A model generated the notes under the pieces. That model was not told the DNA's origin and ran no database searches. It saw only the letters and a list, made by a program, of their open reading frames with translations. A program made the translations under genes and the position numbers. DNA of 64,000 nucleotides, from contig OZ316776.1 of NCBI GenBank assembly GCA_973851085.1, positions 3,224,001 to 3,288,000 of the forward strand. The letters are read 5' to 3'. The DNA comes from Ptychomitrium polyphyllum. Lineage: Eukaryota. Positions 15,085-55,114 of the stretch are shown here, piece by piece (the first letter of the stretch is position 1; every line of letters begins with the position of its first letter).

Positions 15085-18000
15085 TTAATCAACTGGCATT
15101 TCATTGTCTTGAGCAGGTGCCTTCTCATCCACACTAGTCACCTTTGTAGTACTTACAGTTAATGTTGAAGCTGCTGTAACAACAACTTCGACTTTTTGTG
15201 TAGACGCTGGTGAGCTCTTTGTTTGAGTAGAGGCTGAATCATTGTCTTGCACACTAGCCTTGTTTTCTTGGGTTACAGTTCGTGAAGGTGGGTCAGGAGG
15301 CTGGATAACTTGATCTGGATAAGCGGCTTTATATCGTGCACGCAACCCTTCATCCACAAGGCGAACTCCATTTAGCTGATTTCCAAGCGACATCCACCTG
15401 CGTACAAGCACAATACCCATCTTAGCAAACTAGAATGATATGACACAAAGTGCCTAGATGGTATGAAATAATCCTGAACTCCTGCAGGCCTGTTATCTGC
15501 AATCTAGTTCTTATGATAATTGCAATGGAGAAACATATAATCACTCTTAAATCTAGCAGTCTATATGACCTCCTTCATGGCATATGACAAGAAGGCAAAA
15601 AGCGGTGCTTAAGTAATAGTATACACAAGAAACCTAAGATATATGCAACATATATACCCTGCATGTGTGTTGTGCATTCGAGCAAACAACTCCAGCTTTC
15701 GAGTTCTTGGGCTTATTCGCTCCAATAAAGGGTACATCTGCAGGCAGCAGCAGACCTTTCTTAGAACATAATGAAATTGTAGGATTCACATATCAAGTGG
15801 GAGTGAGGAATCAAATATGTATGTCCAAGAATAATCCTTCATAATATCCAAGTATATAAAATTTTCAAATCCAACTTTAGATTTGTAGAGGTACATATCC
15901 ATACAATTCTAAATGTATGCAATATTCTAAATATACAGATAGATATACACATCACATACGGCATCCATCACACTTTAAAACGGATGACTGTTGAAAGAAG
16001 AATTAGTTCAAAGAGCCTATATGAGCCAGAATATAAATAAGTCCATAAGTATTAAGCAAATGCATTCTTCTCAAGGAAGACCAGAACCATACTGTATAAA
16101 ATTTAGGACACTAAGTGCTTAGGTTCTGTATTTAAATCGCCAAAGAAAGCAGAAAATTAACATCGAAGCTATACCTCATCAGGCTTCCGGCTTGTTTCTC
16201 GAACTTCTGCAACAATGACATCTGTGTCAATATTGCGGTTGACATCAGGGTGGCCTTTTATACCCACTAGGCAGTGCTCTTTGCTATGATTTAGCCAATG
16301 ACCTGTTCTCCCTGTTCGGATGATTCGCTGCAGCTGGTTGGTTTTCACCCAGATGATTTCTTCTACCCTCTTATAGCCCCATAACTCCAGGCTGATTGCA
16401 CAATTTACCGAATGGATAATATTAGAAGTGAACGCACAACGTTAAACCCACGGTTATGTTTTAAAGATGCACGAAACAGATTAGGAAGCCTGATATGCAC
16501 AATCCCTTAACGCATGAAGTCAGATTCGATTGATACATGCTCGAAGCATGCCTGCTCTTTCTGATATATACCAGTTCAGTTATAAGAAATGTCTATTAGG
16601 TGAAGAGAATTACCATTCTCGCCCAAGTTCCATAGCACGACCAGTAACCCAAAGGAATATAAGTCCATCTGTTTGCAATGCTGGTACATTCAAGTTACGC
16701 ATCTCATCGTCAGCCATAGTCCCATACGGTAACTCCATATGAATGTCCCATGGAGGGTCTGCCATAATAACTCCAAACTGTCCCAATACATCCATCTTGA
16801 AATTACGTATATCACATTGTACCCACTGAGGCTCCCCAAGTTCTGCATCTGAGCAATACTCTGCACGCTGAGGTCTGGATCCTGGCCTCTGATTAGGTGG
16901 TATGCCCGGAGTCATCATCAGATCTGGAACATCAGGAATGGGATCCAACTCATAGTGCACATACTTACATGTCTGCATCCATCAAACACATTTTGTATAA
17001 GAATCACAAGGCCATTATTAAGAGAGATAGACAAAACAGTACGCAACTTTATAGGTCAAGAGTAAATTGAATAGGAAATACATAAACTTAACAGGCTCTG
17101 GTGGCACCCAGAGTTAGCAGTCCAACCTCCGCCTACACTTCATCGACCTTTAGCACAAGGTGAAAAGGAGAAAACGAGAAAAATCGGTCAAGGAGATGGC
17201 CCAGTAAAGCAAGAAGGCGCACCTTCATGTGACGGCAAGTGTCCAGAAATGAGCAGTCTCCAAGATTTGAATCCGTGTGTGGAGCAATAATGCGGCGAAA
17301 ATGCATCTGATTTGGGATTTCACATGATGAATAAACATATAAGAAAAACACGAGTTCATAGATAACATGATAAAAAAATGATGTCCCTCACTGCTACATG
17401 TACCTTATTCAGCGGTACCTCAACAAGGGGCTAAACTTGGCCAGCTCTTACACAAACTCAGTGGTACAAATGCAGATGAGAAATGATACATACATACAGA
17501 ACTTCCAATTAATCACAAAAGCACTACTTCTGGAGTCAAAGTTTAGCTGACTTGTTACCTATCCATCATAGAAAAGGGTAAGTAGTGAATCCAGAGATTT
17601 ACATGTTCTTAAGAGGCAATTGGTAACTAACCAATAAACTCACACTAGGAAGTAGAGAAAAGCTATTGCGAATTTTCACCTTCTCACAAGCAATGAAATG
17701 GTTGCGTTGATGTCGACAGTCCTCCTTTGTGAGGGCTACACAGTACTCCTTCAACGCAGAACCCCCCTTTGTCTTGAACTGTTTAAACGACCAAGATCCA
17801 AAATACTCGGATATAAGCAGGCATGTAAAATGATACAATAAAATCAAGCACCCCCACTAGGCCTGCACACCGTCTTAAAATCCATCAATCCAAATAAAAT
17901 AAAATCAATTTCATGCCTGAGTTATTGGACAGCACTAACCTTCGCAGCATTTGCTGTTTCTTTCGCAGTAGGGCGATGCAATAGCTCTAAGAGCTCCTCA

Positions 18001-20153
18001 GCTGTCTTGAACTGCTGTTGCTCCTTGAATGACTTCTTATGTAATAATGCATCAATGTCCTCCTCTTCTGCGGGACCTCGACCCTTCCCACCCATGCCAC
18101 CATGGAGGCCCGGTCCATGCGGGGGCCTTGGAAAGGGTCCACCAAAACCACCCCCAAGCCCTGGACCTCCTCCAGGCATACCCAGCATGCCCATACCCCG
18201 AGGTCCGTTTCGTGGAACCATGAGAGGGGGGCCTCCTCCACTTGGAAACATGGGGCCACCAGGAGGAGGGCCTCCTTGATGATGATCCCACACATCAGGC
18301 CTTGTAGGCAGACCATAAGGTGCTCCATTTGGCTCCATCACGCCTCTATGGTGGTGCTCTCCACCCATTCGTGGAGGTGGAGGCAAGCAACCGCCAGGAA
18401 GCTCCTTCATCAACCGTCCTCTATCAAAGTTCAGAACCAAAACGTGCAGTCCTCCATACCTATAGTCCTCTATCTCCTCAATCTGTAGACCTCCCGCCTC
18501 TGTCATTGCCCGCAGGGCGTAATCCACAGCAGTAATACCACCTGCCTCCCCACCACCTCCCACTTCATGTAATGCATCCATCTCAATAGGATTCATTTCT
18601 TTGGCAAGCATTCGGTGGTGGATGTTCACAGAATCTATGGGCAAAGCTGTCGTGTGTGACAGCAAGCATCCAGCAACCATCGCCTTCACAACTCCTAGTG
18701 CATTCATAGGCCCAGCTCCCCGGCCACCGTCCCAACCACCACCCCCCCAACTGTCAGCCCCCCATCCCTCACCCACAGACCCATCACCTCCACCACCTCC
18801 ACCACCTCCACCACCTCCACCACCTCCACCCCAAGAGTCTCCTGGCAATCTTGGTCCGCCCATGTCCACATCCACGTTCGCCTTAAATGGAGCACCAAGA
18901 ATACCCCTTTGCTCAACAGAGCCATTAGACAATCCTGAAAAGCTCGGTCCATGACCCGTATACCTAGAACCTGTTGCAGGTTCTCTATGATCTCCAGCAC
19001 TAAATGTATGAACACTATCAGATCTTTTCTGAAGATCCTCCCGATTCTCAATTGTCTTATTCTTTTTTATCTCCAGTCCGCCAAACGCCGACGCAACCTG
19101 CATTACCAAGGATATGATCAACTTCAGTTTCAAAGCAATAATATAAGACAACACTCACTCCCGTCAAAGATTTCACAGGCATGTGTCAACAGCACTAGAA
19201 GCGAGAGGACATATGCGAAAAGTGATATCCCCTTCTCAATAAAAGAAAAGGGAGACAATGAGGCAATTTTTGAGCGAGTGCCTTAGCTCAGTAAGTTCAA
19301 ATAACGGGATGTTTCTGGGACCGTTCTTTTGCAAAGTTTCAACTGCTTCAGGATTAAATTGAAGAAAGTCCACAGCTTCTCTAGGGATTTTCTCAAGTTA
19401 TGCCACTTCTTCAAAGACTAGCTGTTGTACACAACGTCTCTAATCCTGAGGCTAAAATTGTTGTGAACAAAAAGCAAAGCATCATCTCTGTCTGCTTCCA
19501 AGGGTAGACCAAAGGAAGTAATTTAGCACTTTCTTTGTTATACAGTATCCCAGACTGAGGATAAGCTCGCACAGCCTCCAGTTTACCTGTCCTAAACCTA
19601 GATGTTTCAAAATCCTCAGTTACAGCACATTCAAACATACAAGGGCAATAAGTAAGAAAATTCCAACTTCGCTTTTGCGAACGTCATCCTCAATTAAGAA
19701 ATGTCGACTAAAACCATTTAGTTCAAGGAATCTTCCTGAACCTTGGACACTACACTACAGGTCTCCATCAGATATCAGAGAAAATTAACCAGAAAACCCA
19801 CAACATAACATCCGAGAAAACCGTCACCACATCAATAAGAAGCACATTCACCATCGCCAATAAAAAACCTAAGAAATCCGACTCATACCCTAAACCCCGC
19901 AACAGCTCAACTGGTCTCACTACCACAGCACAACTGACACAAAAACAGCAGCAGGAAGCCAAGGAAGTCGATCAGTCACCTTAAGCGAAAGCTCGACTGC
20001 AGCCTCGAGATCCGGCACTGTGACAGCCAAGCTCCGCGACTGCTCCAGTCCAATTCGCCGCAGGTGTTCCACTCTGCCTTGGACCTGGCGCAGCTGCTCC
20101 CGCAGCGCCACAATCTCGTCCTCCCCATTCTCCATCGCCACCGGCACGTCCAT
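15085..20153 (-). CDS. MTA: mRNA N6-adenosine methyltransferase catalytic subunit (MT-A70, METTL3 orthologue)
   Basis: Exons 20153-19980, 19097-17940, 17778-17680, 17306-17223, 16972-16614, 16391-16175, 15737-15658, 15397-15085 join in frame. CCCH-type zinc fingers ([33 protein letters not shown]), catalytic [43 protein letters not shown]. Confidence 0.97.
18781..18830. repeat. (CCACCTCCA)n coding repeat giving a poly-Gly tract in MTA
   Basis: 9-bp periodic repeat translating to ~15 consecutive Gly on the minus strand. Confidence 0.9.
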
Positions 20154-31448: not shown

Positions 31449-32459
31449 TACATTTACTCAAAAACATGCGAAGTGATGGGTGTCCTTACCATAGTAGATT
31501 TTTCGGTGTCATCAACCCTGACAGTCTGCAAAACTGTCAACACTAAGACCATGATCTCGCCTCCTGATTGGTTGATTTGTTAAGAGTGAGTTTCAATAAA
31601 ACTCTGAAGTCCAAGTTCTGTTTTGCTACTGCCACCTCGCAAAGAAGGCTATGTTGTGGTCGTTCGGTATTTCAGGGATTGTTGAACTTGGGCATGAGAG
31701 GCTTATTGTTGCAGTATCCATTGCTCACCGCAAATTTCTACCGCATCGGGAGTGGTTTGTATAGATTGTGGTTAGGAGGGACCGTGTGCTGCATCACTCC
31801 CACTCTCATGTTGCTGGAGGACTTGAGCTGAATTTGGAAAGACTAGTTACACGTGGGAAGTGTGAAGCTGAGTTTGGGTCGGATGTTTAAGATATACTAG
31901 GAGTTATTCCTTGATCGCTTTTTTCAACAACATTTCGACAATAGACAAGACTCTTCCATTGGGGAATGATCAAAGAAACTTCTGGCCAGCACAGTGTCGT
32001 ACTAATACTGACAATTAGTTGGATCGCAGGAGTCATTATAACGTTTCCTGTAACTGATGATTACCTGTACAGAGTTGTGATGCACACAGAGGATGGTTTT
32101 TCACAACATCCCGCAAGCTGGGTTGGCCGCAACAAGCTACAAATCTCTTGGTGCAACAACCGGCCAGACCGATTGCTCCACCGCAAACTCCTCTCAGCAA
32201 TTAAATTCCCGAAGATCTCCCAGCCCACGTCGTAAAAGGGGAAAGAATTGAGCTGTAAACACTAAATGTGTATCAATCACCATTGCTGTACAGTCATTGT
32301 CAGTCTTGCATCTTGCATACTGAGGCCACTACAAGTGGACACAAGAATATTAGACTTTCTATCTACATGGTTCCTCATAGCTTCAAAACTTTGATACACT
32401 CCGGCCCACGCCTTGTTCCTTCCTATTTCAAAACACCGTGTCATCCTGTCAACGTACAG

Positions 32460-34574
32460 CTAGGGCGTGCTCATTCTACTCTCCAGCTCGAACAACTCTT
32501 CGTCCTCATGGTCGCTCTCATACTCGCCATCTGCAAGTCCGGATGCATAAGGTTACATAGCAAACCATAAAATTCATAATATTCGTAAACTAAGATATGT
32601 TTCACTTAAGCTTATACGGTAGTTCACACATCAGATGCAGAAAATGACGCTCCTGAGATTATAAAGTGTCACCTTTGACTGAAAATAAAGCACAACGCAG
32701 AAGGAACCTCATAAATGAATGACAATGACGTCTTTCAGTTCATGTGGGTTCTTAAACTTTCCAATCCACCTACCCTTAGTAGATAATTGCTCAAAAAGAA
32801 TAGGAGTTGCCATGCGCCTACTTTGCAACTTTCTCTTATTCTAATTGTTTTGTTCGTGTTCCAGTTAAGGTAATTAGAGATTTACATGGGTAGTTATCTG
32901 TAGTACACGTACCACTTTCAGGTGGACGCGCCAGGTAGTCTATGCCAGGCTGAAATTGGAGAGGCACGAGCTCCGTGGAGAAGTTTTCCAGCTTCACTAC
33001 GAGCCAATCTCGTTCCGTTGCCGCCTTCTTTGCCTGGTGTCATTCCAAGCTCAAATTTAAGTCACGTGCCACTATCAAATATAAGCATCAAAAATTTAAG
33101 AAGATTGTTGATTCCTTCCTCACCAATGAATCCCCCGTACATATACCAAGAGCAAATTTTGAGATGCATTTCTGAACGTCATTGCCAATTGAATAAGGTA
33201 TTTTGATCAACTAAAATTCCTAAGTCTGTAATAAGTTTGAAAACCTTGACTGATCTAACAGATAGAGAAGCCAATTCTGGTTCTTAAAGTAAGGTTCAAT
33301 ACTCGTGACCACATCTCTACCAAAAATCTAATACTAAAAGGGACAAAAAAGAGAAAAGGGGGCATCCATCAGACGATCAAATAGAATTGCAAGATTTGGA
33401 TTTTTCTAAGAAATCCGTAAGATATGCGAATTCTATTACTACAGATACAAAAATATATCTATGGTAACACCTCACATGTTCACCCAGATCAACCCTTGTG
33501 CTATGCTCAATGACCCGGAACTTCAGCTCACCGCAATTTTCCGGTCAAATACATCCAGTTACTATCGTTTGGTTTTCCACAACAAGGCCTTGATTGTTAT
33601 CCAAGAACAAGACTCAGCCATAATGATTACTTAAGCGTTAAGAAAATGAACTTGATAACGATACCATTAGTTCACACACCAATAGTCGAAATTGCTTTAC
33701 GCTTAACCAACATCCGAAAGGCTCCAAATATTAGTTTATGAAGGTAAATAAACCTGGAATTCTGAAAAAAGAGGAAAATAATGGAGGATAATTTTTATGT
33801 TGTAAGACTCCGTACGTGCATGTATGAGAGTGGAATCAAGAAGAGTTTGTGAGAAGAACTGAACTGTTTCGATGCTGCATATGGAAATGCTAACTAAGCT
33901 TACAATGCCTCTAACCTTAAACAGAAAGTAAATCTCAGGCTTCCTAAAAGCGGAACCTCGTGTCGTTCCTCGCCAATGCAACAATGACCAGAAAATTTGC
34001 CACCCAATGCATTGCGAGGGTTTGCCCTTACCTCTAATTCGGCACCACCCGAAGGCGCCGGTATCGTTTCATTCTTCAAAACCATGGACCCCAGCGCGTA
34101 ATGCAGCAACCTGCTGGCCTGCCGCAGCGCACTGTCCTTGGTCTCCCCTTGCCCTAGAAACTGCGGGTAATCCAGCACTATCGAAAAATAACTCTTGTAC
34201 TCGTTCACATGATCCTCCTCCGACGCCACCAACACCGCATACTCCCGCCTCTCCAGGTTCACGGCCGCCAGCGCCGGCACCAATTCCCTGCTCCCGGCCC
34301 CCACAGGCGCCCCAGGCACCGCTGGCGTACCGTCCGCATGCACGAACACCAACCCCACCCCCGGTACCGCCACCGACGGAACCCTCTCCTCACTACCCCC
34401 ATCGCTGTTGCTTCCTCCATGCCCCCCACTCATGCTCTCCGACACCGAATCACTGTCCGCACTCTCCACCACCGCGCTCCCCATCCCCTGCTTCTCCTCC
34501 CCCGGGCACTTCCTCACTCGATACTCCCGCTCCTCGTCCTCCCACGCAAAGTAGGGCTTGAATTCCAACCCCAT
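32460..34574 (-). CDS. Spliced gene encoding a ~244-aa protein with a HicB antitoxin-like (UPF0150-type) domain
   Basis: Exons 34574-34032 (donor GAG|GTAAGG), 33033-32913 (CAG|GCA..G|GTACGT), 32530-32460 (TGCAG|AT..TAG) join in frame. Residues ~110-175 REYAVLVASEED..YFSIVLDYPQFLGQGETKDSALRQASRLLHYALGSMVLKNETIPAPS match the HicB N-domain pattern Y.V...EED..Y....PD.P....QG.T..EA...A...L...L......E.IP.PS. Confidence 0.78.
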
Positions 34575-34614
34575 CTCTGCTCGCTGCTCTGCTCTACTCT
34601 GCTCTGGTATGCTC

Positions 34615-34970
34615 TCCTCTCCTCTCCTCTTCCAACACACCGACCCAACTACACAACCCCCCCAGACAGTAGTCAAAGGTGCAACCTTTGAGCAAAAACC
34701 GATCACAACATGACTATGTCGATATCCCGCTCCCTCCTCGTCCTCTTCAAGCAAAACCACCTACCTCCACAACCTGCACCAAAAAGTAGCCCCAAAGCAC
34801 AACCTTTGGGCCAAAACCGATCACAACACGACCATGATCACGACCTCTCTTCCTCCTCCACCTCTTCCAACAAACCGCCCAACTCCACAACCTGCAACAA
34901 CAAAAAAAGGTAGTAGCCCCAAACTGCAACCTTTGCGTCGAAACCGATCACAGCATGACCATGTCGTCGA
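34615..34970. repeat. ~3 degenerate ~120-bp tandem units upstream of the HicB-like gene
   Basis: CAACCTTTG....AAACCGATCACA.CA.GAC.ATG starts at 34682, 34800 and 34927; CCTCTT..A.CAAA..CC.ACAACC blocks also recur. Confidence 0.85.
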
Positions 34971-35332
34971 CGGCCAGTTCCTGGTTTCTCTTGGAATAAC
35001 AGCAACCCAACCCAAGCGAAGTAAAGCTGGAAGGCCAAAAGTGGCCTTGGGTGCGGGAATCTGGAGTCGGAGTCGGAATCGATCACAGGACCGTTTCGGA
35101 TCTTGGTCCGCTGCAACCCTACGGTGCTCCAGGCCTGGTGACGAAGATCTTGGCTGCCGAGCTGCGACCTCGCGTGGTGCTCGTTGCCTGCCATTCCCCA
35201 CTGCCCCTCCGCGTCTTGCCTGTGCCTGCCACGTTTCCCGGGCCCCACGCGGCCCCTAAACTTCCTTCTTGCGGGAGGCGAGGTGTTGTTGCTTGGTAAC
35301 GAAACGAAACGTGCCGACTTGGAGGAAAAGGC

Positions 35333-35437
35333 GGACTTAGTGGACTTGGTGAACTTTGGGGACTTAGTGGACTTGGGGGACTTGGTGGACTTGGAGGACT
35401 TGGTGGACTTGGGGGACTTAGTGGACTTGGGGGCTTG
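35333..35437. repeat. 9-bp minisatellite (GGACTTGGN / GGACTTAGT), ~11-12 units
   Basis: Read directly: ggacttagt ggacttggt gaactttgg ggacttagt ggacttggg ggacttggt ... Confidence 0.92.
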
Positions 35438-36913
35438 AAGGGCATGGGCTGAGCGCATGGTTGTTTGTGCCCATCAATGTGAGGAGTGTTTTATGCGATT
35501 TATTCAATGACAAATGAAAGCCAAGTAGCATAAATTTTTTAATGATTTAAAAGAAGAAAAGAGAGGATTTCAACAAAATTGTAATCTCTTTTAGAACAGC
35601 TTCGAATCATTTAAAAAGTTTTAAGGAATGATTTAGAAAATTCAACTCGATAAATTTACAAGAAATGATGCTTTGTGCCCTTCTGCAAAATTGATTCTTA
35701 CATGAAGATGCCAAAGTAAGTGACTTGTAATAACTTCGAGCAAGAAATTATCCATGTAAAAAACCAGTATGTCACATGAGTACTCGAGGGAAGAAACCTA
35801 TAATGGCGGAAGTATAGTTGCATCCTCTCTCCGAACAGCACTTTCTTGAAACCTTTTTTGAAAAGCCTTTCCTTGCAATTCATGGATTGTAATGGAAAAA
35901 GTAAAAAGCTTTGCAAGTCACTCATTGGTTTTATTTTGATCCTGTTCCACAGACTGCCTATGTACCTGGCAAATGCCACTACATTCCTTTCTTGCAACTA
36001 CTGGTAACAGGAAAGTTAGTATCTACTAACATATTTTGCAATAATATTCTATGCTAAAAATTCAAGCTAAGCTTTTATCATTCTTCATGAATAAGAGGCC
36101 ATTCAGTAACTTGTAGGCTCAGGAATTACCTATCCAATGCTCTGGATTACTATTTGATAATTTTCTGTAACTTTAAAAATTAAATTGAATTAATGATAGT
36201 ATTTAAAGTAAAGACTGATGTAAATTAAAATAAACAACACTAAAGTCCCTTCAAAAAGTGAAGCAATCCAAGGTTTTACGGTGAGCAATGAAAATATCTC
36301 CAAATAGCATCAAACGAATCTCGACAGAAGATGCCTCAAAAAGATTCCCCGGAATCACCGCTCCAATACAAACTTATACGTACACATGCAGACCCCGACC
36401 GCACCAAAATGTACAAACCTTCCCTTCAATTCTACCGAAACCTCTCAAACCTCAAGGATGCACACCTAAACCCGTCTCCACATCCCAAAACTGCTAATCT
36501 CCTAAAAGGGGAATATTCTACTTCACAAGATCTATGAAGAACATAGAGATCTCAGAACCTATATACAGTAACGGACCGTGACGGAATCCATTCCATACTG
36601 TATCTGAATTTGTTCAAAATTTGACAAGGAGAAATGTATGTCAGAAAAGATTGTGGCGGTGTTCGGGTGCAAAGACGGGTTTAGGCAGGCTTCCTAGAGG
36701 TTAGTGACGTTTCAGTAGATTTGAGGAGGAAAGAATTGGAATTAACGAAAATTTACGGAAATTCTACCAAATGTGCACAAATCTTCGCAGCAGGGGCTCG
36801 CCTTCTTGAGCTCGCCGTGGTCGCTGAGAGTGCCACTTCCAAAGCTCTCGTTTTGCGTTTTTTCGTTGCTGGTTGTCTATCTGTGTTGTGTTTTTTTCCT
36901 GAGTGTGATTGCC

Positions 36914-49617: not shown

Positions 49618-51533
49618 CAACCAGGGTGTACCCTGCACTCAAGGTCTGATTGCGTGAGTGGAAAATAAAATTAGTAAAATCTGGCATAACAATCAACATC
49701 TGATTGCCAGAATTCTGATTCAGTTCCTTATGAAAAAATACATGAAAGCACCAGATTTTGATGAAAACAGTATAGCATTATGCATGAACAATATTTTTCT
49801 ATTCAAAACATCAAAAAATGTAGATTTATGTGATTACAATGTAAGTTTTGTATATTTCCAATGTAATACTGTGAAATGATATGAAAAAAGAGATTATACA
49901 CCAAATATAAAGGTGAAGATTTTAAAAGAATTCTTGTCAGTTTAGCTTGTGTGTATTTTATAACGTTTTATGTTTATATGTCCACTGATCAAGCTTGTCT
50001 TTTCTGTGTGCAGCATCTTTGAAGCTTTTTTGTTTTATTGTAATCAATAACCACAATTCAATTATTAGCATTTTTGTTACAGTTGTAGATTTAAATTTTT
50101 GCATGTGTTTGGTGGATTCTTTTGCAAGTCTAATAACACTTGGTTTATATGGACTTAAATTGTAACTTTTTGAATATTAATTTAAGAATATAATATAAAA
50201 AAATGAAAGTATATTTTAAAGTATACTTGAAAGTTTTTAAATTGTTCTATATACTTTTGGAATAAACTAATGATAACAAGTATTATTAAAAAATCAAGAA
50301 AATCAAGCAAACATATATGCGTTTAATACCCAAAATTTTAATAATTAAAAGCCTTATTTTCTAAGATGTTTTATTAATGATAGATTTTTGACTTTAGCAT
50401 TTTCAGATTAAAAAATATAAATTTATTAAACACACTATGATCATTGTATAATGTTGAAAACGTTAAAATAAAACATTAAAATTTTATTTTTGCAATGAAT
50501 TATTGATTAGGAATAAATGGGCTAAAAACAGTTAATATATCAATCATATTTCACATAATAGTTTGTAAAAGAACCTAATAATTTTAGCTCAACGCTTAAA
50601 CATCATGACAAAAAATACAAGGATAATATTATATTTTCTTTCCAAGTGCTAAATTTTTTTCTATTATATACAATAGAATATTTAGACCAAATTCTATATT
50701 ACCATAGTGGTGTAAGACAATGCTATGATAAAAGATGCTATGTTGACTATAAACTTGTTGTAATATTTAATGAAGTAGACAAGTGATCCAATTGTTTTGA
50801 AAATATGTAGTTCAATCAAATGCACAACACTTTACAAAATTGAAGTTTACGCTCCAATCAAAAAGAAAAACATAACAAAGCAGGAAGTAACATCTTCAGT
50901 CAGATTTTTGTTAAAAAATGTGTTGAGTTTACAAAGAACTTTACCAAACCAGCAGTATTTCCAAAGCTTGGCCATACCGTAGAATACAACAATGTGAGTG
51001 TACGGTACGTGTGTGTAGCAAATGAAATGCCCACCTTCCACGCCACTTTCTCAAGCACCCAGCCAGGATCATTCCTTCAGCGGCGCGAGAAAAGCGCCTA
51101 CTCCACAAATCTACGCGTTCCCCACACCCCATGTAGCCCCTGCGAAGATATCCATCTCGCCTGAACAAATCGTCGTTCCGTCCACACGTCTCTCCATGCA
51201 ATTAACGCCACGAGCGTTTTCCCACTGCCAAGCATGCACGTGAACTTTTTAATCATGACACTCCCCCAGTACCACCAGTGTATTACGGACGTATCGTCGG
51301 TTGTCGACAGTGTATTTATCTGACATGCAGAGGTATCAACTGGTTCAGTTGATGTGGATACACGGGTATTCTCGTAGTATCGTCCTACTGCAGGGCCTTG
51401 TGTCTAGAGGGAGGAGAATCTGACGGTGGCTAAGCTGCTCGTAATTTTCGATCAGGTTCGGTTTTCGGAGGCAGTAGCGCAGGAGGCTTTGATGTGGAGT
51501 TTGCAACTGGACCTGCAACGTTGTGGGAGGAGA

Positions 51534-54500
51534 ATGGGATCAGCGATGGCGGTGAAGGTGTGGGCGATGGTGTTGGTAAGTGTTGCTGTTGTTGCAGCTG
51601 GAGCTGCGGCAGGTGGTGCAGGCCGGCGTGATGGTGCTGCTCTCGGAAGTACAATTGGGTTCGCGACGGTGGGGCGGTTGAGCTTCGGCTTCGATGTGTA
51701 CACAGTGGCGCTGCAGGGAGGTGATGGCGGAGACGGGAAGTTGAGGGAGACGCGGGTGGCGGGTGGGGAGTCGGTGAGCTATAATGCGCAGCTGGTGGAT
51801 GGCGGGCGGGGTTCGGCGGTGCTTGAGAGGTTGAAGCCGGGCGATGATGCGGTTGAGGGGGCGGAGTTCCTCGTTTACGTTTCGGAAGTTGAAGGCAGTG
51901 CGCAATTATACCTCGAGATGCCGATGCAAGGTGAAGGGTTGGGTTTTTGGCTTCATTTCCAGGACTTGGTTGACTGTTGAGATTCGATGGTGTCTGGACC
52001 ATCATAACCTAGATATGGTTTCTGCAATTGGTTGAGAAGGTTAGGTGATGTGAAATTATAAGTTCGATTGGCGGGAATTTTGGCCATGGCAGGCGCTCTT
52101 GAATCTTAAAGAAGATTATGGTTAGTTGCTCTTGCAGAATGATTTTAACGAGACGCGTTTTTTGTTACTGGATTCTTGTCGTAGAAGAACTATGGAGTCT
52201 CGAATTGGGTTGAATTCTTTACTTGAGGGGACTATGAAACATTTTAGGGTTCTCGTTTTCTTCGAGCATCTTATTGCTGTTTTGGGATTGGCAGATTCTG
52301 AGGGGCAAAACATCATGACAAGAAGCAGAAGGCGTATTGCGTTACGAGATACAGGTGTGAATGCTTCTCCGAAGGCTTATCTAAATGACAGACCATCAAT
52401 GAGCGGAGATACGGTTGTGTTTGTTTCCACTGAAGAAGACGTTGGAAAGCCTCTACAAGGTTGGAACGCTGTTTACTCGTTGAACTTCAAAACCTATGTT
52501 ACCAAGCGCTTGACTCCGTTAGGGATCACCGACTACAGCCCTGCACTTTCTCCTTCTGGTAAAGTTTCACCTTCATGTCACAAGGTTTTTGATCTTTTTT
52601 AGTTTCATTGAATATGAGACTCCTTTTTAAAAGAGTGATACTGGTAGAAACCTAGCTAGTTATTTAATAGCACAAATCACATTTCAATCATATGCGGGGT
52701 TCTTATTTAGTTTCTGAAGTCCGTATACTTACAACTGGGTTATAGAAGGCTGGATAATGAAACCTTCATTTCTTGACTTTATTTTCTAAAAAAATTCACG
52801 ACTGTTTCTGTGTTTTGAACATATAGATGAGATCGGTGAAATATTAATGCGTTGAATTTACATTTAAATGTTGTTTCTTTAGCTGATAAGGGTTGGGTAT
52901 ACAGGTGAGTGGGTTGCAGTGGCGTCCAACGAAGGACGAGGCTGGGAACGAGAGATTGAAGCTCTAAACTTGGACCTTCATGTTTTCAAAGCAGAGGATG
53001 GCTCTCAAAGGCGAATGGTAGTCAAGAATGCAGGGTGGCCTACCTGGGCGGATGAAAGTACGGTGTATTTTCACCGCGTAGCAGATGATGGATGGTGGAG
53101 CATATTCAGAATCAACGTATCTGAATCGAGTGCCGAACAAGGTCTGCCCCCATTCATTCCTTATTCTGTCTGGTATACACTTGGAGTTTACTTTGTCTTC
53201 CTCTTTTATCACATGATCTTTCAATGACCATGTACATCATGTGAGACAAGTAATGACCTTGTGGAGTTGTAGACGAGAGCCACTTTGATCACTGCAGAGT
53301 GTAGGAGTTCATGACAGCTGTTGGTTAGATTACAATTATCATCTTGCAATTTGTTTTTGTATATATAATCTAACTGAATTTGAAGCGTTTTGGTGTGGTT
53401 TCCTTCAACTAATATGGTATCAAACTTGTTCAGCCAATTTTGATTTGGTCACCATTTCTTGTTTTTGTAGTGACCAAGCCCAAACTTGTACTCTGCTCGG
53501 AAATTTACAAAGTGATAGTTGCGAAATTGGGTGTGGTATTGTTGGAACCGGGATTTAAGCTGTGATTTGACTAGGATGATTCACTTTCAAATAATCTGAC
53601 GCTTTCTTACTTGTTTTTTGTTCTGACAGACGCAGAGGCTGAGCGGGTGACTCCTCCAGGGGTACACGCCTTCACTCCAGCAGCTTCGAGATCGGGAAAG
53701 TGGATTGCAGTCGCCACACGCCGAGCATCAATTCGACACATTGAAATCTTTGATTTGCAAGTAAAGAAGTTCCTCCCCTTGACAGCTCTCATCAATCCCA
53801 GCACCCATCACTATAGTCCATTCGTCTCTCCAACCTCAAACAGAATTGGATATCATCGATGCAGGGGAATAGACCAGGGTGCCCAGAACGTAGAACCTCG
53901 AGTTGAGAATGTACAATCACCACTTGCAGGCGTTTCTTTAGTTCGAATACGTGGCAGTTTTCCAGTAATTTCACCAGATGGCTCATTAGTTGCTTACGTG
54001 GATAGCTGCAAGAATACAGAATGCTTAGCTGTGATGGACCTAAATGGCTCAAAAAAACGAATCTTGTACCGGGGTAATCTCTTCGGAACTGCCTGGGATC
54101 CTACAGGAAAGGTGGTGTATGTTGCACAGGGGCCTGGTTTTGCCTCTGTGGATAGCTCTGTGCACATAGTAGCCATTTCAAATGCGGATACTGCTGACGA
54201 GGCGAGCATCGGATATAAATACTTGACAAAGCAGGGCACTGCTAACAATGCATTTCCGAAACCTTCTCCAGATGGGAAGTATGTTGTTTTTCGTTCTGGA
54301 AGGGATGGTCATAACAATCTGTATATCATGGATGCTGTTGATGGAGAAGAGAAGTATTTGCGACGGCTTACTGAAGGGGCTTGGACTGATACCATGCCAT
54401 CATGGTCGCCTGACAATGAATGGATTGCGTTTTCGTCTAATCGGTTGCACCTAACTGGTTCGTGACGAGTGCCAACTTCTGGAGAATTGCTGTTCATGTG

Positions 54501-55114
54501 ATAGTCTCTTGTTTTGAAGTCCTTTTCTGGAATGTCAGATTTTTTATGTACAAGATACTGTCTAGTTTTTGTTTACTTGTAGCCGTTTATGTAGAATTGC
54601 TTCAAGTGAGTCTGGAGAAGCATTAGGCATTGACAATTCGTTTGATGACAATGGCGCAGGTGAGAAATCATTTTCTCTGTATCTTATTCGTCCCAACGGA
54701 ACAGGCCTTCACTTGCTCCTCGATACCGGAATCGGTGGGCTTGCGAACCATCCCACTTTCAGTCCCGACGGGAAGAGAATTGTTTTCACAAGCGACTATG
54801 CAGGAGTATCAGCCGAACCCATTGCCTGGCCGCATGCATACCAACCTTATGGTGAAATTTTTGTTATCAATATGGACGGCTCTGGGCTCACAAGGTTGAC
54901 ACACAACGCTTACGAAGACGGGACACCCACGTGGGGTCCACTACATTCACCAAAAGCAGATTTTGCCTCAACAGAAGGAGAGATTGCTGCATGTGATTTT
55001 GATGATGTGTGGTTCCTCAACAAGCCTCTGCAAATGCGAAGAGGTCAATGTCAAAGAAGGTGGAGCCCCTACATCCCAGCTGCTGCGGAAGTTGCAAATC
55101 ACACCTACCTGTAA
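51534..55114 (+). CDS. TolB-like / DPP6 N-terminal-like beta-propeller protein (PD40-type repeats) with signal peptide
   Basis: Exons 51534-51930, 52295-52558, 52905-53141, 53630-54457, 54660-55114 join in frame. Repeats PALSPSGEWVAVAS, FP.PSPDGKYVVFRSGRDG..NLYIMDA, RRLTEGAWTDTMPSWSPD.EWIAFSSNR, NHPTFSPDG, QPYGEIF, RLTHN.YEDGTP.W. Confidence 0.93.

What the first reader, a model, noticed from the sequence alone, without database searches (positions are those of the whole stretch)
32460..34574. Bacterial HicB-antitoxin-like domain in a spliced plant nuclear gene, with no cognate toxin
Seen: three GT-AG exons give a ~244-aa protein. Residues ~110-175 (nt ~34247-34050) follow the HicB/UPF0150 N-domain pattern (Y.V...EED..Y....DYP...QGET..SA...A...L...L.......E.IP.PS), and exon 2 adds a helix and strand like the usual HicB continuation. 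Known: HicB neutralises the dsRBD-fold RNase toxin HicA in prokaryotic type II toxin-antitoxin systems and often carries a C-terminal HTH or RHH DNA-binding domain. Here that position holds an acidic tail (DGEYESDHEDEELFELE), a Ser/Gly-rich extension precedes the domain, and I found no HicA-like ORF in the window. Inference: a horizontally acquired, domesticated orphan antitoxin that may bind endogenous dsRBD-fold proteins or RNases, or microbial HicA-like proteins. I know of no characterised plant member but cannot confirm novelty.
Basis: partly seen in the sequence, partly recalled or inferred. Interest (0 to 1): 0.9.

Follow-up and report, generated by a model that had tools for sequence, protein, structure and literature searches.

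The report
Moss gene built from bacterial antitoxin
A moss nuclear gene with two introns encodes a protein predicted to fold like the bacterial antitoxin HicB; it is conserved across mosses, has changed two residues that trap the toxin in bacteria, and was likely taken from bacteria long ago and repurposed to bind a moss protein.

Summary
The gene is real. Three exons (34574-34032, 33033-32913, 32530-32460) give 244 aa. Both junctions appear in contigs of relatives, and both introns sit at the same codons in Sphagnum-type loci. The core evolves under purifying selection (dN/dS 0.05-0.16). Residues ~98-220 are predicted to fold as a HicB N-domain: the top 7 structural matches are HicB/UPF0150-type (Z 9.5 against 4.4 for the next fold), and PHROG HicB-like hits at E 2e-5. 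Every named homologue is a moss protein. No close bacterial donor was found, so the transfer is ancient and its source unresolved. The antitoxin reading weakens: positions matching the Thr and Glu that trap HicA's catalytic His are Gly (36/36) and non-acidic, mostly Arg (0/36 acidic, against 24/30 in bacteria), and helix 1 lost its negative charge. No HicA-like ORF lies in the window. Best reading: a domesticated HicB domain, flanked by two conserved short motifs, that likely binds a conserved moss protein. The partner is unidentified. I found no paper on it.

The parts
34032..34574 (-). Exon 1, codons 1-181: N-terminal motif, linker and most of the HicB-like domain
   Evidence: covered by relatives' contigs 34031-34578; homologues begin at the same Met
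34533..34574 (-). Conserved N-terminal short motif MGLEFKP-x(2-3)-WE, residues 1-14, predicted disordered
   Evidence: 14 distinct variants share GLEF.P; no amino-acid change between Sphagnum-type paralogues despite 3-6 synonymous changes; pLDDT about 30
34281..34532 (-). Variable Ser/Gly/acidic linker, residues 15-98, predicted disordered, length differs between paralogues
   Evidence: dN/dS about 0.3-0.5
34032..34283 (-). HicB-like domain, first part: extra helix (98-108), strands 1-3, helix 1, E.IP.PS motif
   Evidence: AlphaFold2 model of the Ceratodon orthologue, pLDDT mostly 84-93 over the domain with a dip to 66 in the acidic loop; VIA-align Z 9.5 to 6g1n/6g1c; phrog_497 E 2.3e-5
34185..34187 (-). 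Phe130, equivalent to S. pneumoniae HicB Phe22 (needed for HicA binding); kept
   Evidence: register; 13 of 13 moss cores; PMC6159526 passages
34152..34154 (-). Gly141, equivalent to HicB Thr33 (contacts HicA catalytic His); changed
   Evidence: Gly in 36 of 36 distinct moss segments; Ser/Thr in 22 of 30 bacterial HicB
34110..34112 (-). Arg155, equivalent to HicB Glu47 (salt bridge to HicA catalytic His); charge reversed
   Evidence: acidic in 0 of 36 moss segments (Arg 27), acidic in 24 of 30 bacterial HicB
33034..34031 (-). Intron 1, 998 nt, phase 0, GT-AG
   Evidence: skipped by X1/X2 contigs; same codon boundary in 7 of 7 Sphagnum-type genomic loci examined
32913..33033 (-). Exon 2, codons 182-221: end of helix 2 and strand 4 of the HicB N-domain (RHH-class type)
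32531..32912 (-). Intron 2, 382 nt, phase 1, GT-AG
   Evidence: skipped by X1/X2 contigs; same position in 7 of 7 Sphagnum-type loci
32460..32530 (-). Exon 3 coding part: acidic tail with conserved EELFE motif and stop codon, in place of the HTH/RHH domain
   Evidence: predicted disordered
32110..32459 (-). Probable 3' UTR
   Evidence: relatives' spliced contigs continue along 32110/32126-32530

Best explanation
This is a spliced, conserved moss gene whose central domain is predicted to have the HicB antitoxin fold, likely acquired from a bacterium before Sphagnum and the true mosses split, and likely repurposed as a protein-binding module for a conserved moss partner rather than as a HicA antitoxin. 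Shown: gene structure, conserved introns, purifying selection, loss of the DNA-binding domain, changed His-trapping residues. Predicted: the fold. Inferred: the old toxin-binding face (strands 2-3 and helix 1) grips an endogenous protein, and the two disordered short motifs (N-terminal MGLEFKP..WE, C-terminal acidic EELFE) recruit or regulate further factors, so that the protein works as an adaptor or inhibitor. A dsRBD-fold partner is the natural guess from ancestry, but no partner is identified.
For: Fold: the top 7 VIA-align rows are HicB/UPF0150-type, Z 9.5 (rmsd 2.4, 83 aligned, 6g1c) against 4.4 for the next fold; repeated with a second paralogue, Z 8.6; Foldseek ranks 1-12 are the same class; the moss profile hits only two PDB sequences at E<=10, both HicB; phrog_497 hits 8 of 12 rows. 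Domestication: both introns conserved in 7 of 7 Sphagnum-type loci; core dN/dS 0.05-0.16 between paralogues and lineages; 17 synonymous against 3 changed codons versus a close relative; plant genes on both sides; several paralogues. Changed function: Thr33 to Gly 36/36, Glu47 acidic in 0/36 against 24/30, net charge of residues 144-165 is 0 to +1 in 13 moss cores against a median of -4 in 30 bacterial; no HTH/RHH; no HicA-like ORF nearby. Residues that vary among bacterial HicB are fixed in 13 of 13 moss cores (F130, I132, L140, Q142, R151, H158), as expected for one constant partner.
Against: No partner is identified. 51 core columns are invariant in the 13 moss cores, which include near-duplicates, so constancy of the binding face is not specific. 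Phe22 and Gln34 equivalents are kept. Only the Phe22 and Glu47 mutants lost neutralisation in S. pneumoniae; Thr33Ala was not reported to. 5 of 30 bacterial HicB lack both Ser/Thr and Asp/Glu at the two positions, and L171/L172 have Gly and Ala there yet lie beside a HicA, so these changes do not exclude HicA binding. No moss genome was available, so an unlinked HicA is not excluded. The tree gives no supported donor, cyanobacteria and archaea were not sampled at phylum scale, and bacterial matches reach only about 22 bits.
Confidence: 0.45

Rival explanations
1. It is still an antitoxin: it binds and blocks a HicA-type RNase, either an unlinked moss gene (a eukaryotic toxin-antitoxin pair) or one delivered by microbes (a decoy).
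For: Whole HicB N-domain kept; Phe22 and Gln34 equivalents kept; acidic loop between strands 1 and 2 and acidic tail could meet a basic RNase; bacterial HicB without DNA-binding domain are common (PMC10865869 passages); L171/L172 show Gly and a non-acidic residue at the two positions beside a HicA.
Against: Glu47 equivalent is never acidic and mostly Arg, and helix 1 is neutral; Glu47Ala abolished neutralisation in S. pneumoniae; no HicA-like ORF in 5821 ORFs of the window and moss loci; strong purifying selection does not look like an arms race.
Confidence: 0.17
2. The domain has become an RNA- or nucleic-acid-binding module: the added helix gives it the alpha-beta-beta-beta-alpha order of a dsRBD, and the acidic tail acts as an autoinhibitory mimic.
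For: Extra helix before strand 1 in both models; residues 113-176 of the model align with dsRBDs at Z 3.5-4.4; fixed Arg151, frequent Lys146 and Arg155; Gly141 fits the G-x-G-x-S-K-K-x-A pattern of dsRBDs (pattern recalled).
Against: Core pI 4.9; the second Lys position is Asp/Glu in 13 of 13; helix charge is only 0 to +1; no dsrm Pfam hit in 36 members.
Confidence: 0.15
3. Bacterial ancestry is right but timing or route differs: an older gain (organelle-derived or early streptophyte) followed by loss or unrecognisable divergence outside mosses.
Against: All named hits are mosses; scores fall from 59 bits to nothing at E<=10 among 7517 candidates; 25 hits among 1.84 billion representatives, all pieces of the same close family; unnamed rows fall among the moss rows in the tree.
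Confidence: 0.15
4. It is a degenerate eukaryotic dsRBD that resembles HicB by shared fold, with no horizontal transfer.
For: dsRBDs are the next structural neighbours.
Against: HicB Z 9.5 over 83-101 residues against 4.4 over about 60; HicB-specific D.P, GET and E.IP.PS motifs and the helix 2/strand 4 extension; sequence profiles point only to HicB.
Confidence: 0.04
5. Contamination, mis-splicing or a decaying pseudogene.
For: No curated Pfam or NCBIfam hit for the window's exon 1; degenerate copies exist in Sphagnum-type DNA.
Against: Intact frame, canonical introns shared with Sphagnum, junctions in relatives' contigs, dN/dS far below 1, plant neighbours.
Confidence: 0.01

Closest known systems
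HicB N-terminal domain of RHH-class antitoxins (PDB 6g1c/6g1n, 5yrz, 4p78; Pfam PF15919; COG1598)
   Same: Predicted beta-beta-beta-alpha-alpha-beta fold, Z 8.3-9.5 over 83-101 residues, 9-20% identity; Y.V, D.P, GET, E.IP.PS motifs; Phe22 and Gln34 equivalents kept.
   Different: Eukaryotic spliced gene; no RHH/HTH; no adjacent hicA; extra N-terminal helix, longer acidic loop, long disordered N-terminus with a conserved motif, acidic tail; Thr33 and Glu47 equivalents are Gly and mostly Arg; helix 1 neutral.
Class 1/2 small HicB without DNA-binding domain (PMC10865869, passages) and UPF0150 protein TTHA0281 (PDB 2dsy)
   Same: No DNA-binding domain; 2dsy aligns from within the extra helix (model 114-187, Z 5.5).
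   Different: Class 1/2 HicB are 63-103 aa and sit in hicAB/hicBA operons; the moss protein is 244 aa, stands alone and has helix 2/strand 4.
Horizontally acquired bryophyte genes (PMC12513842, passages)
   Same: Microbe-derived gene fixed in a moss lineage, flanked by plant genes.
   Different: That screen starts from BLASTP at E 1e-5; this gene's best non-moss hits are far weaker (E 0.04 against plasmids alone; none at E<=10), so such a screen would likely miss it. The paper's HGT tables were not available to check.
Double-stranded RNA-binding domain (HYL1, DRB, Dicer, RNase III)
   Same: alpha-beta-beta-beta-alpha order over about 60 residues, Z up to 4.4.
   Different: No dsrm profile hit, acidic core, HicB-type extension.

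Membership tests
HicB antitoxin (type II TA) | Partial RNase H fold (beta-beta-beta-alpha plus continuation) | tested here: met
   Predicted models only:
HicB antitoxin (type II TA) | Sequence-profile similarity to HicB | tested here: met
   phrog_497 E 2.3e-5, 8 of 12 rows; own bacterial profile 17-27 bits against shuffle maximum 8.1; PDB profile search returns only HicB, E 0.04
HicB antitoxin (type II TA) | Curated Pfam/NCBIfam assignment | tested here: inconclusive
   PF15919 in 9 of 36 members at E<=1, best E 0.0061, none for the window's exon 1; no HicB NCBIfam model listed
HicB antitoxin (type II TA) | [quoted passage not shown] | tested here: not met
   23-residue acidic tail, pLDDT under 50
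HicB antitoxin (type II TA) | hicA gene adjacent | tested here: not met
   HicA profile of 18 bacterial rows: best 8.0 bits in 5821 ORFs of the window and L001-L019
HicB antitoxin (type II TA) | hicA elsewhere in the genome | not testable with these tools
   No genome held for this window
HicB antitoxin (type II TA) | Ser/Thr on strand 3 and Glu/Asp on helix 1 that hold HicA's catalytic His | tested here: not met
   Gly 36/36; acidic 0/36; bacterial 21 of 30 have both, 5 of 30 neither; residues from PMC6159526, register
HicB antitoxin (type II TA) | Neutralises a HicA RNase | not testable with these tools
   Needs a rescue or binding experiment
dsRBD | alpha-beta-beta-beta-alpha order | tested here: met
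   Models; Z up to 4.4 only
dsRBD | Match to the dsrm profile and KKxA basic motif (motif recalled) | tested here: not met
   No dsrm family among 24 Pfam families listed for 36 members; T-K-[ED]-x-A in moss
Horizontally acquired plant gene | Integrated in plant nuclear DNA, with introns and orthologues in relatives | tested here: met
Horizontally acquired plant gene | Nearest non-plant homologues are prokaryotic | tested here: met
   Weak hits only:
Horizontally acquired plant gene | Nested with support inside a donor clade | tested here: inconclusive
   Moss clade 100/99; sister L020 at 91/80, not starred, 77 columns
Horizontally acquired plant gene | Absent from other eukaryote lineages | tested here: inconclusive
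   No non-moss named hit, but these searches also miss bacterial HicB, so equally distant eukaryotic relatives would be missed

The most novel reading that the evidence does not exclude
Mosses turned a bacterial antitoxin into a regulator of their own RNA-processing machinery: the HicB face that once blocked a dsRBD-fold toxin now binds the dsRBD of a moss DRB/Dicer-like/RNase III protein and tunes small-RNA production.
Probability: 0.12. Interest if true: 0.9.

Novelty: new variant of a known kind. Interest (0 to 1): 0.62.

Why it matters
HicAB is described as a prokaryotic system in the papers I read. A HicB domain kept under strong selection across mosses, with introns and new motifs, would be a clear case of a toxin-antitoxin part domesticated by a eukaryote. 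It also shows that some moss 'orphan' genes are old transfers too diverged for BLAST-based HGT screens. It is directly testable: Physcomitrium patens has two paralogues (XP_024393652.1, XP_024401636.1), both annotated as uncharacterised.

Tried and rejected
Homodimer prediction of the core (two copies, residues 106-228 of the Ceratodon orthologue): no answer, score 0.00, alignment not used, no evidence either way. No RNA holder listed for the window's own sequence. Pfam and NCBIfam on the window's exon 1: nothing; NCBIfam on 28 members: no relevant family. Pattern scans with the moss alignment in viral contigs (211 stretches) and prokaryote genomes (181 stretches): no confirmed relative. Search of six phylum samples (351, 201, 201, 251, 201, 201 genomes) with the moss core: 11 matches at E<=0.01, best 22.4 bits; 7 are HicB by my bacterial profile, 4 are not. 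Ten single genomes with a noisier alignment: 0. Longer or fused forms (484-2000 aa): none among 7987 candidates, weak evidence. Synteny: window ORFs hit only the gene itself in L001-L019. Second model with a short-linker paralogue: the N-terminal motif stayed low-confidence, no docking seen. Viral fold library: best E 2.5e-3, a phage antitoxin. Donor tree unresolved. Earlier findings of this scan: none by sequence or words. Literature: ten searches (listings only) found no paper on a plant HicB; the one moss paper with 'hicb' means hicBuildMatrix; six accession numbers give 0 main-text hits. Supplements: for PMC12513842 only one 22,685-character file was held, not the HGT tables; for PMC11228847 the file was cut when stored and lists the orthologue g8694 as uncharacterised. 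Subscription papers were not searched, so novelty is not proven.

Full report
Observation. The minus strand holds an ORF from ATG 34574 to a GT donor after 34032, a 121-nt exon 33033-32913 and a last exon 32530-32460. Joined they give 735 nt, 244 aa and one terminal stop, with GT-AG introns of 998 and 382 nt. Contigs of two runs from relatives (X1, X2; one study; RNA status is the tool's guess; about 88% alike) skip exactly these two introns. Three metagenome contigs (L001-L003) and NCBI models from Ceratodon purpureus, Physcomitrium patens and Sphagnum carry the same joined protein. No run on record as RNA holds the window's own sequence, so its transcription is inferred from relatives. Seven of 10 window ORFs scanned hit ordinary families (ACBP, DUF7796, PD40, WCOR413, Dus, DUF7748, VTT) and an eighth MT-A70: this is plant nuclear DNA, and the homologues point to a true moss.

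Family. The single-sequence search found 35 proteins, the profile search of 1.84 billion representatives 25, and the core-centred profile 45 among 7517 candidates, with nothing between 59 bits and E 10. Every hit with an organism name is a moss (Ceratodon, Physcomitrium, Sphagnum). Many hits are unnamed, but those in the tree fall among the moss rows. JGI's pipeline labels several metagenome copies 'predicted RNase H-like HicB family nuclease'; NCBI and UniRef call them hypothetical or uncharacterised. Both introns lie at the same codon and phase in 7 of 7 Sphagnum-type genomic loci examined, so the gene and its introns predate the Sphagnum/true-moss split. The core has dN/dS 0.05-0.16 between Sphagnum-type paralogues and 0.08-0.15 against the window (dS near saturation there); the N-terminal 14 codons show no amino-acid change between those paralogues. 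Against the close relative in X1/X2, 17 of 20 changed codons are synonymous (from the 21 differences listed for that contig).

Fold. VIA-align against 48,161 chains ranks seven HicB/UPF0150-type chains first (Z 9.5, 9.5, 9.1, 8.3, 8.0, 6.7, 5.5), then dsRBDs from Z 4.4. A second paralogue repeats the order with Z 8.6; Foldseek agrees, as does the Atlas structure search. The tool warns that Z under about 8 can be a common arrangement; here sequence evidence agrees: PDB profile search returns only HicB (E 0.04), phrog_497 scores E 2.3e-5, PF15919 is the most frequent Pfam family (9 of 36 members, best E 0.0061), 3 of the 4 distinct plasmid organisms hit by tblastn are HicB or HicB-like by annotation or alignment, and a 30-row bacterial profile scores moss cores 17-27 bits against a shuffle maximum of 8.1.

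Is it still an antitoxin? In S. pneumoniae HicB, Thr33 and Glu47 hold HicA's catalytic His36, and Phe22Ala or Glu47Ala abolish neutralisation (PMC6159526, passages; also PMC11594946, passages). The register runs without gaps from 5yrz through L021 to the moss core (a two-residue tag offset is inferred from six matching residue names). Phe22 is F130 and Gln34 is Q142, both kept. Thr33 is G141, Gly in 36 of 36 distinct moss segments (Ser/Thr in 22 of 30 bacterial rows). Glu47 is R155, acidic in 0 of 36 (Arg 27), against 24 of 30 in bacteria. The net charge of residues 144-165 is 0 to +1 in 13 moss cores against a bacterial median of -4. Against my reading: 5 of 30 bacterial rows lack both residues, and L171/L172 have Gly and Ala there while lying next to a HicA, though with a strongly acidic helix. 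The bacterial set is small and comes mostly from five genomes plus hits to the moss query. There is no DNA-binding domain, which is also true of class 1/2 HicB (PMC10865869, passages). A HicA profile finds nothing in 5821 ORFs of the window and moss loci (best 8.0 bits), while the HicB profile finds the gene at 21 bits in the same set. The rest of the genome could not be searched.

Origin. No close donor exists in what I could search: 1406 genome searches in six phyla gave 11 matches at E<=0.01, best 22.4 bits. In a 41-row tree the 8 moss rows form one clade (100/99) on a stem of 1.71 changes per column; the sister row, a Bdellovibrio plasmid protein, has 91/80 and is not reliable on 77 columns. 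Bacterial origin rests on HicB being known from prokaryotes and phages and on the moss-limited distribution; because my protein searches also miss bacterial HicB, equally distant eukaryotic relatives would be missed too. Cyanobacteria were not sampled, so an organelle route is open.

Mechanism. Shown: intact conserved gene, two conserved short motifs in disordered ends, loss of the repressor domain, altered His trap. Predicted: HicB fold with an added helix. Inferred: the sheet/helix-1 face, where F130, I132, L140, Q142, R151 and H158 are fixed although these columns vary in bacteria, binds one conserved moss protein, and the motifs link it to other factors, making it an adaptor or inhibitor (0.45). 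The caveat is that 51 core columns are invariant in this small set. Rivals: retained antitoxin or decoy (0.17), nucleic-acid binding (0.15), older or organelle-derived gain (0.15, a separate question from function), degenerate dsRBD (0.04), artefact (0.01). Solo antitoxins exapted for other roles are discussed for prokaryotes in PMC2701414 (passages).

Novelty. Ten literature searches found no description of a plant or bryophyte HicB (listings only). The large bryophyte HGT screen starts from BLASTP E 1e-5 (PMC12513842, passages), a bar this gene's bacterial matches do not reach in my searches; its HGT tables were not among the supplements I could see, which may bear on novelty. The Physcomitrellopsis africana orthologue is listed as uncharacterised (PMC11228847, supplement row). 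Verdict: a real, undescribed eukaryotic variant of the HicB domain, probably no longer a canonical antitoxin; interest 0.62.

Noticed in passing
runs X1-X4, records laid on window 32460-34575: A second paralogue: a DNA contig in X3/X4 matches all three exons with different introns at equivalent places, and X1/X2 hold a second spliced contig with a shorter linker; a short-linker group also appears among the proteins (P0017, P0019-P0023, P0030).
   Followed up: partly
L010:1641-3666, L011:2-3426, L012:141-3249: Mutually 86-94% alike multi-copy stretches that carry a fragment of the L004-type gene (exon 1 core plus intron 1; L011 has a stop): likely gene fragments captured by a transposon in Sphagnum-type DNA.
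   Followed up: partly
window 34667-34963: Three imperfect copies of a unit of about 120 bp directly upstream of the start codon.
   Followed up: no
window 35298-35450: 9-nt tandem repeat (GACTTGGTG-like) that opens long Pro/Ser/Lys-rich frames; not shown to be coding.
   Followed up: no
L171, L172 (G1151, G1190): Small HicB without DNA-binding domain that has GQGET and no acidic residue at the Glu47 position, beside a HicA; in L172 the HicA match is split over two frames.
   Followed up: partly
window 32463-32530: The acidic tail holds S-x-x-E/D sites of the casein kinase 2 type and ends in S/T-P (kinase motifs recalled, not tested).
   Followed up: no
P0089 (Ceratodon M758_2G195700, partial): A truncated second copy of the exon 1 core on the same 21.6-Mb record as the Ceratodon orthologue.
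   Followed up: no
window 51408-55114: Multi-exon PD40/TolB-like beta-propeller gene.
   Followed up: no
window 16610-19154: MT-A70 methyltransferase gene with a long Gly/Pro-rich N-terminal part.
   Followed up: no
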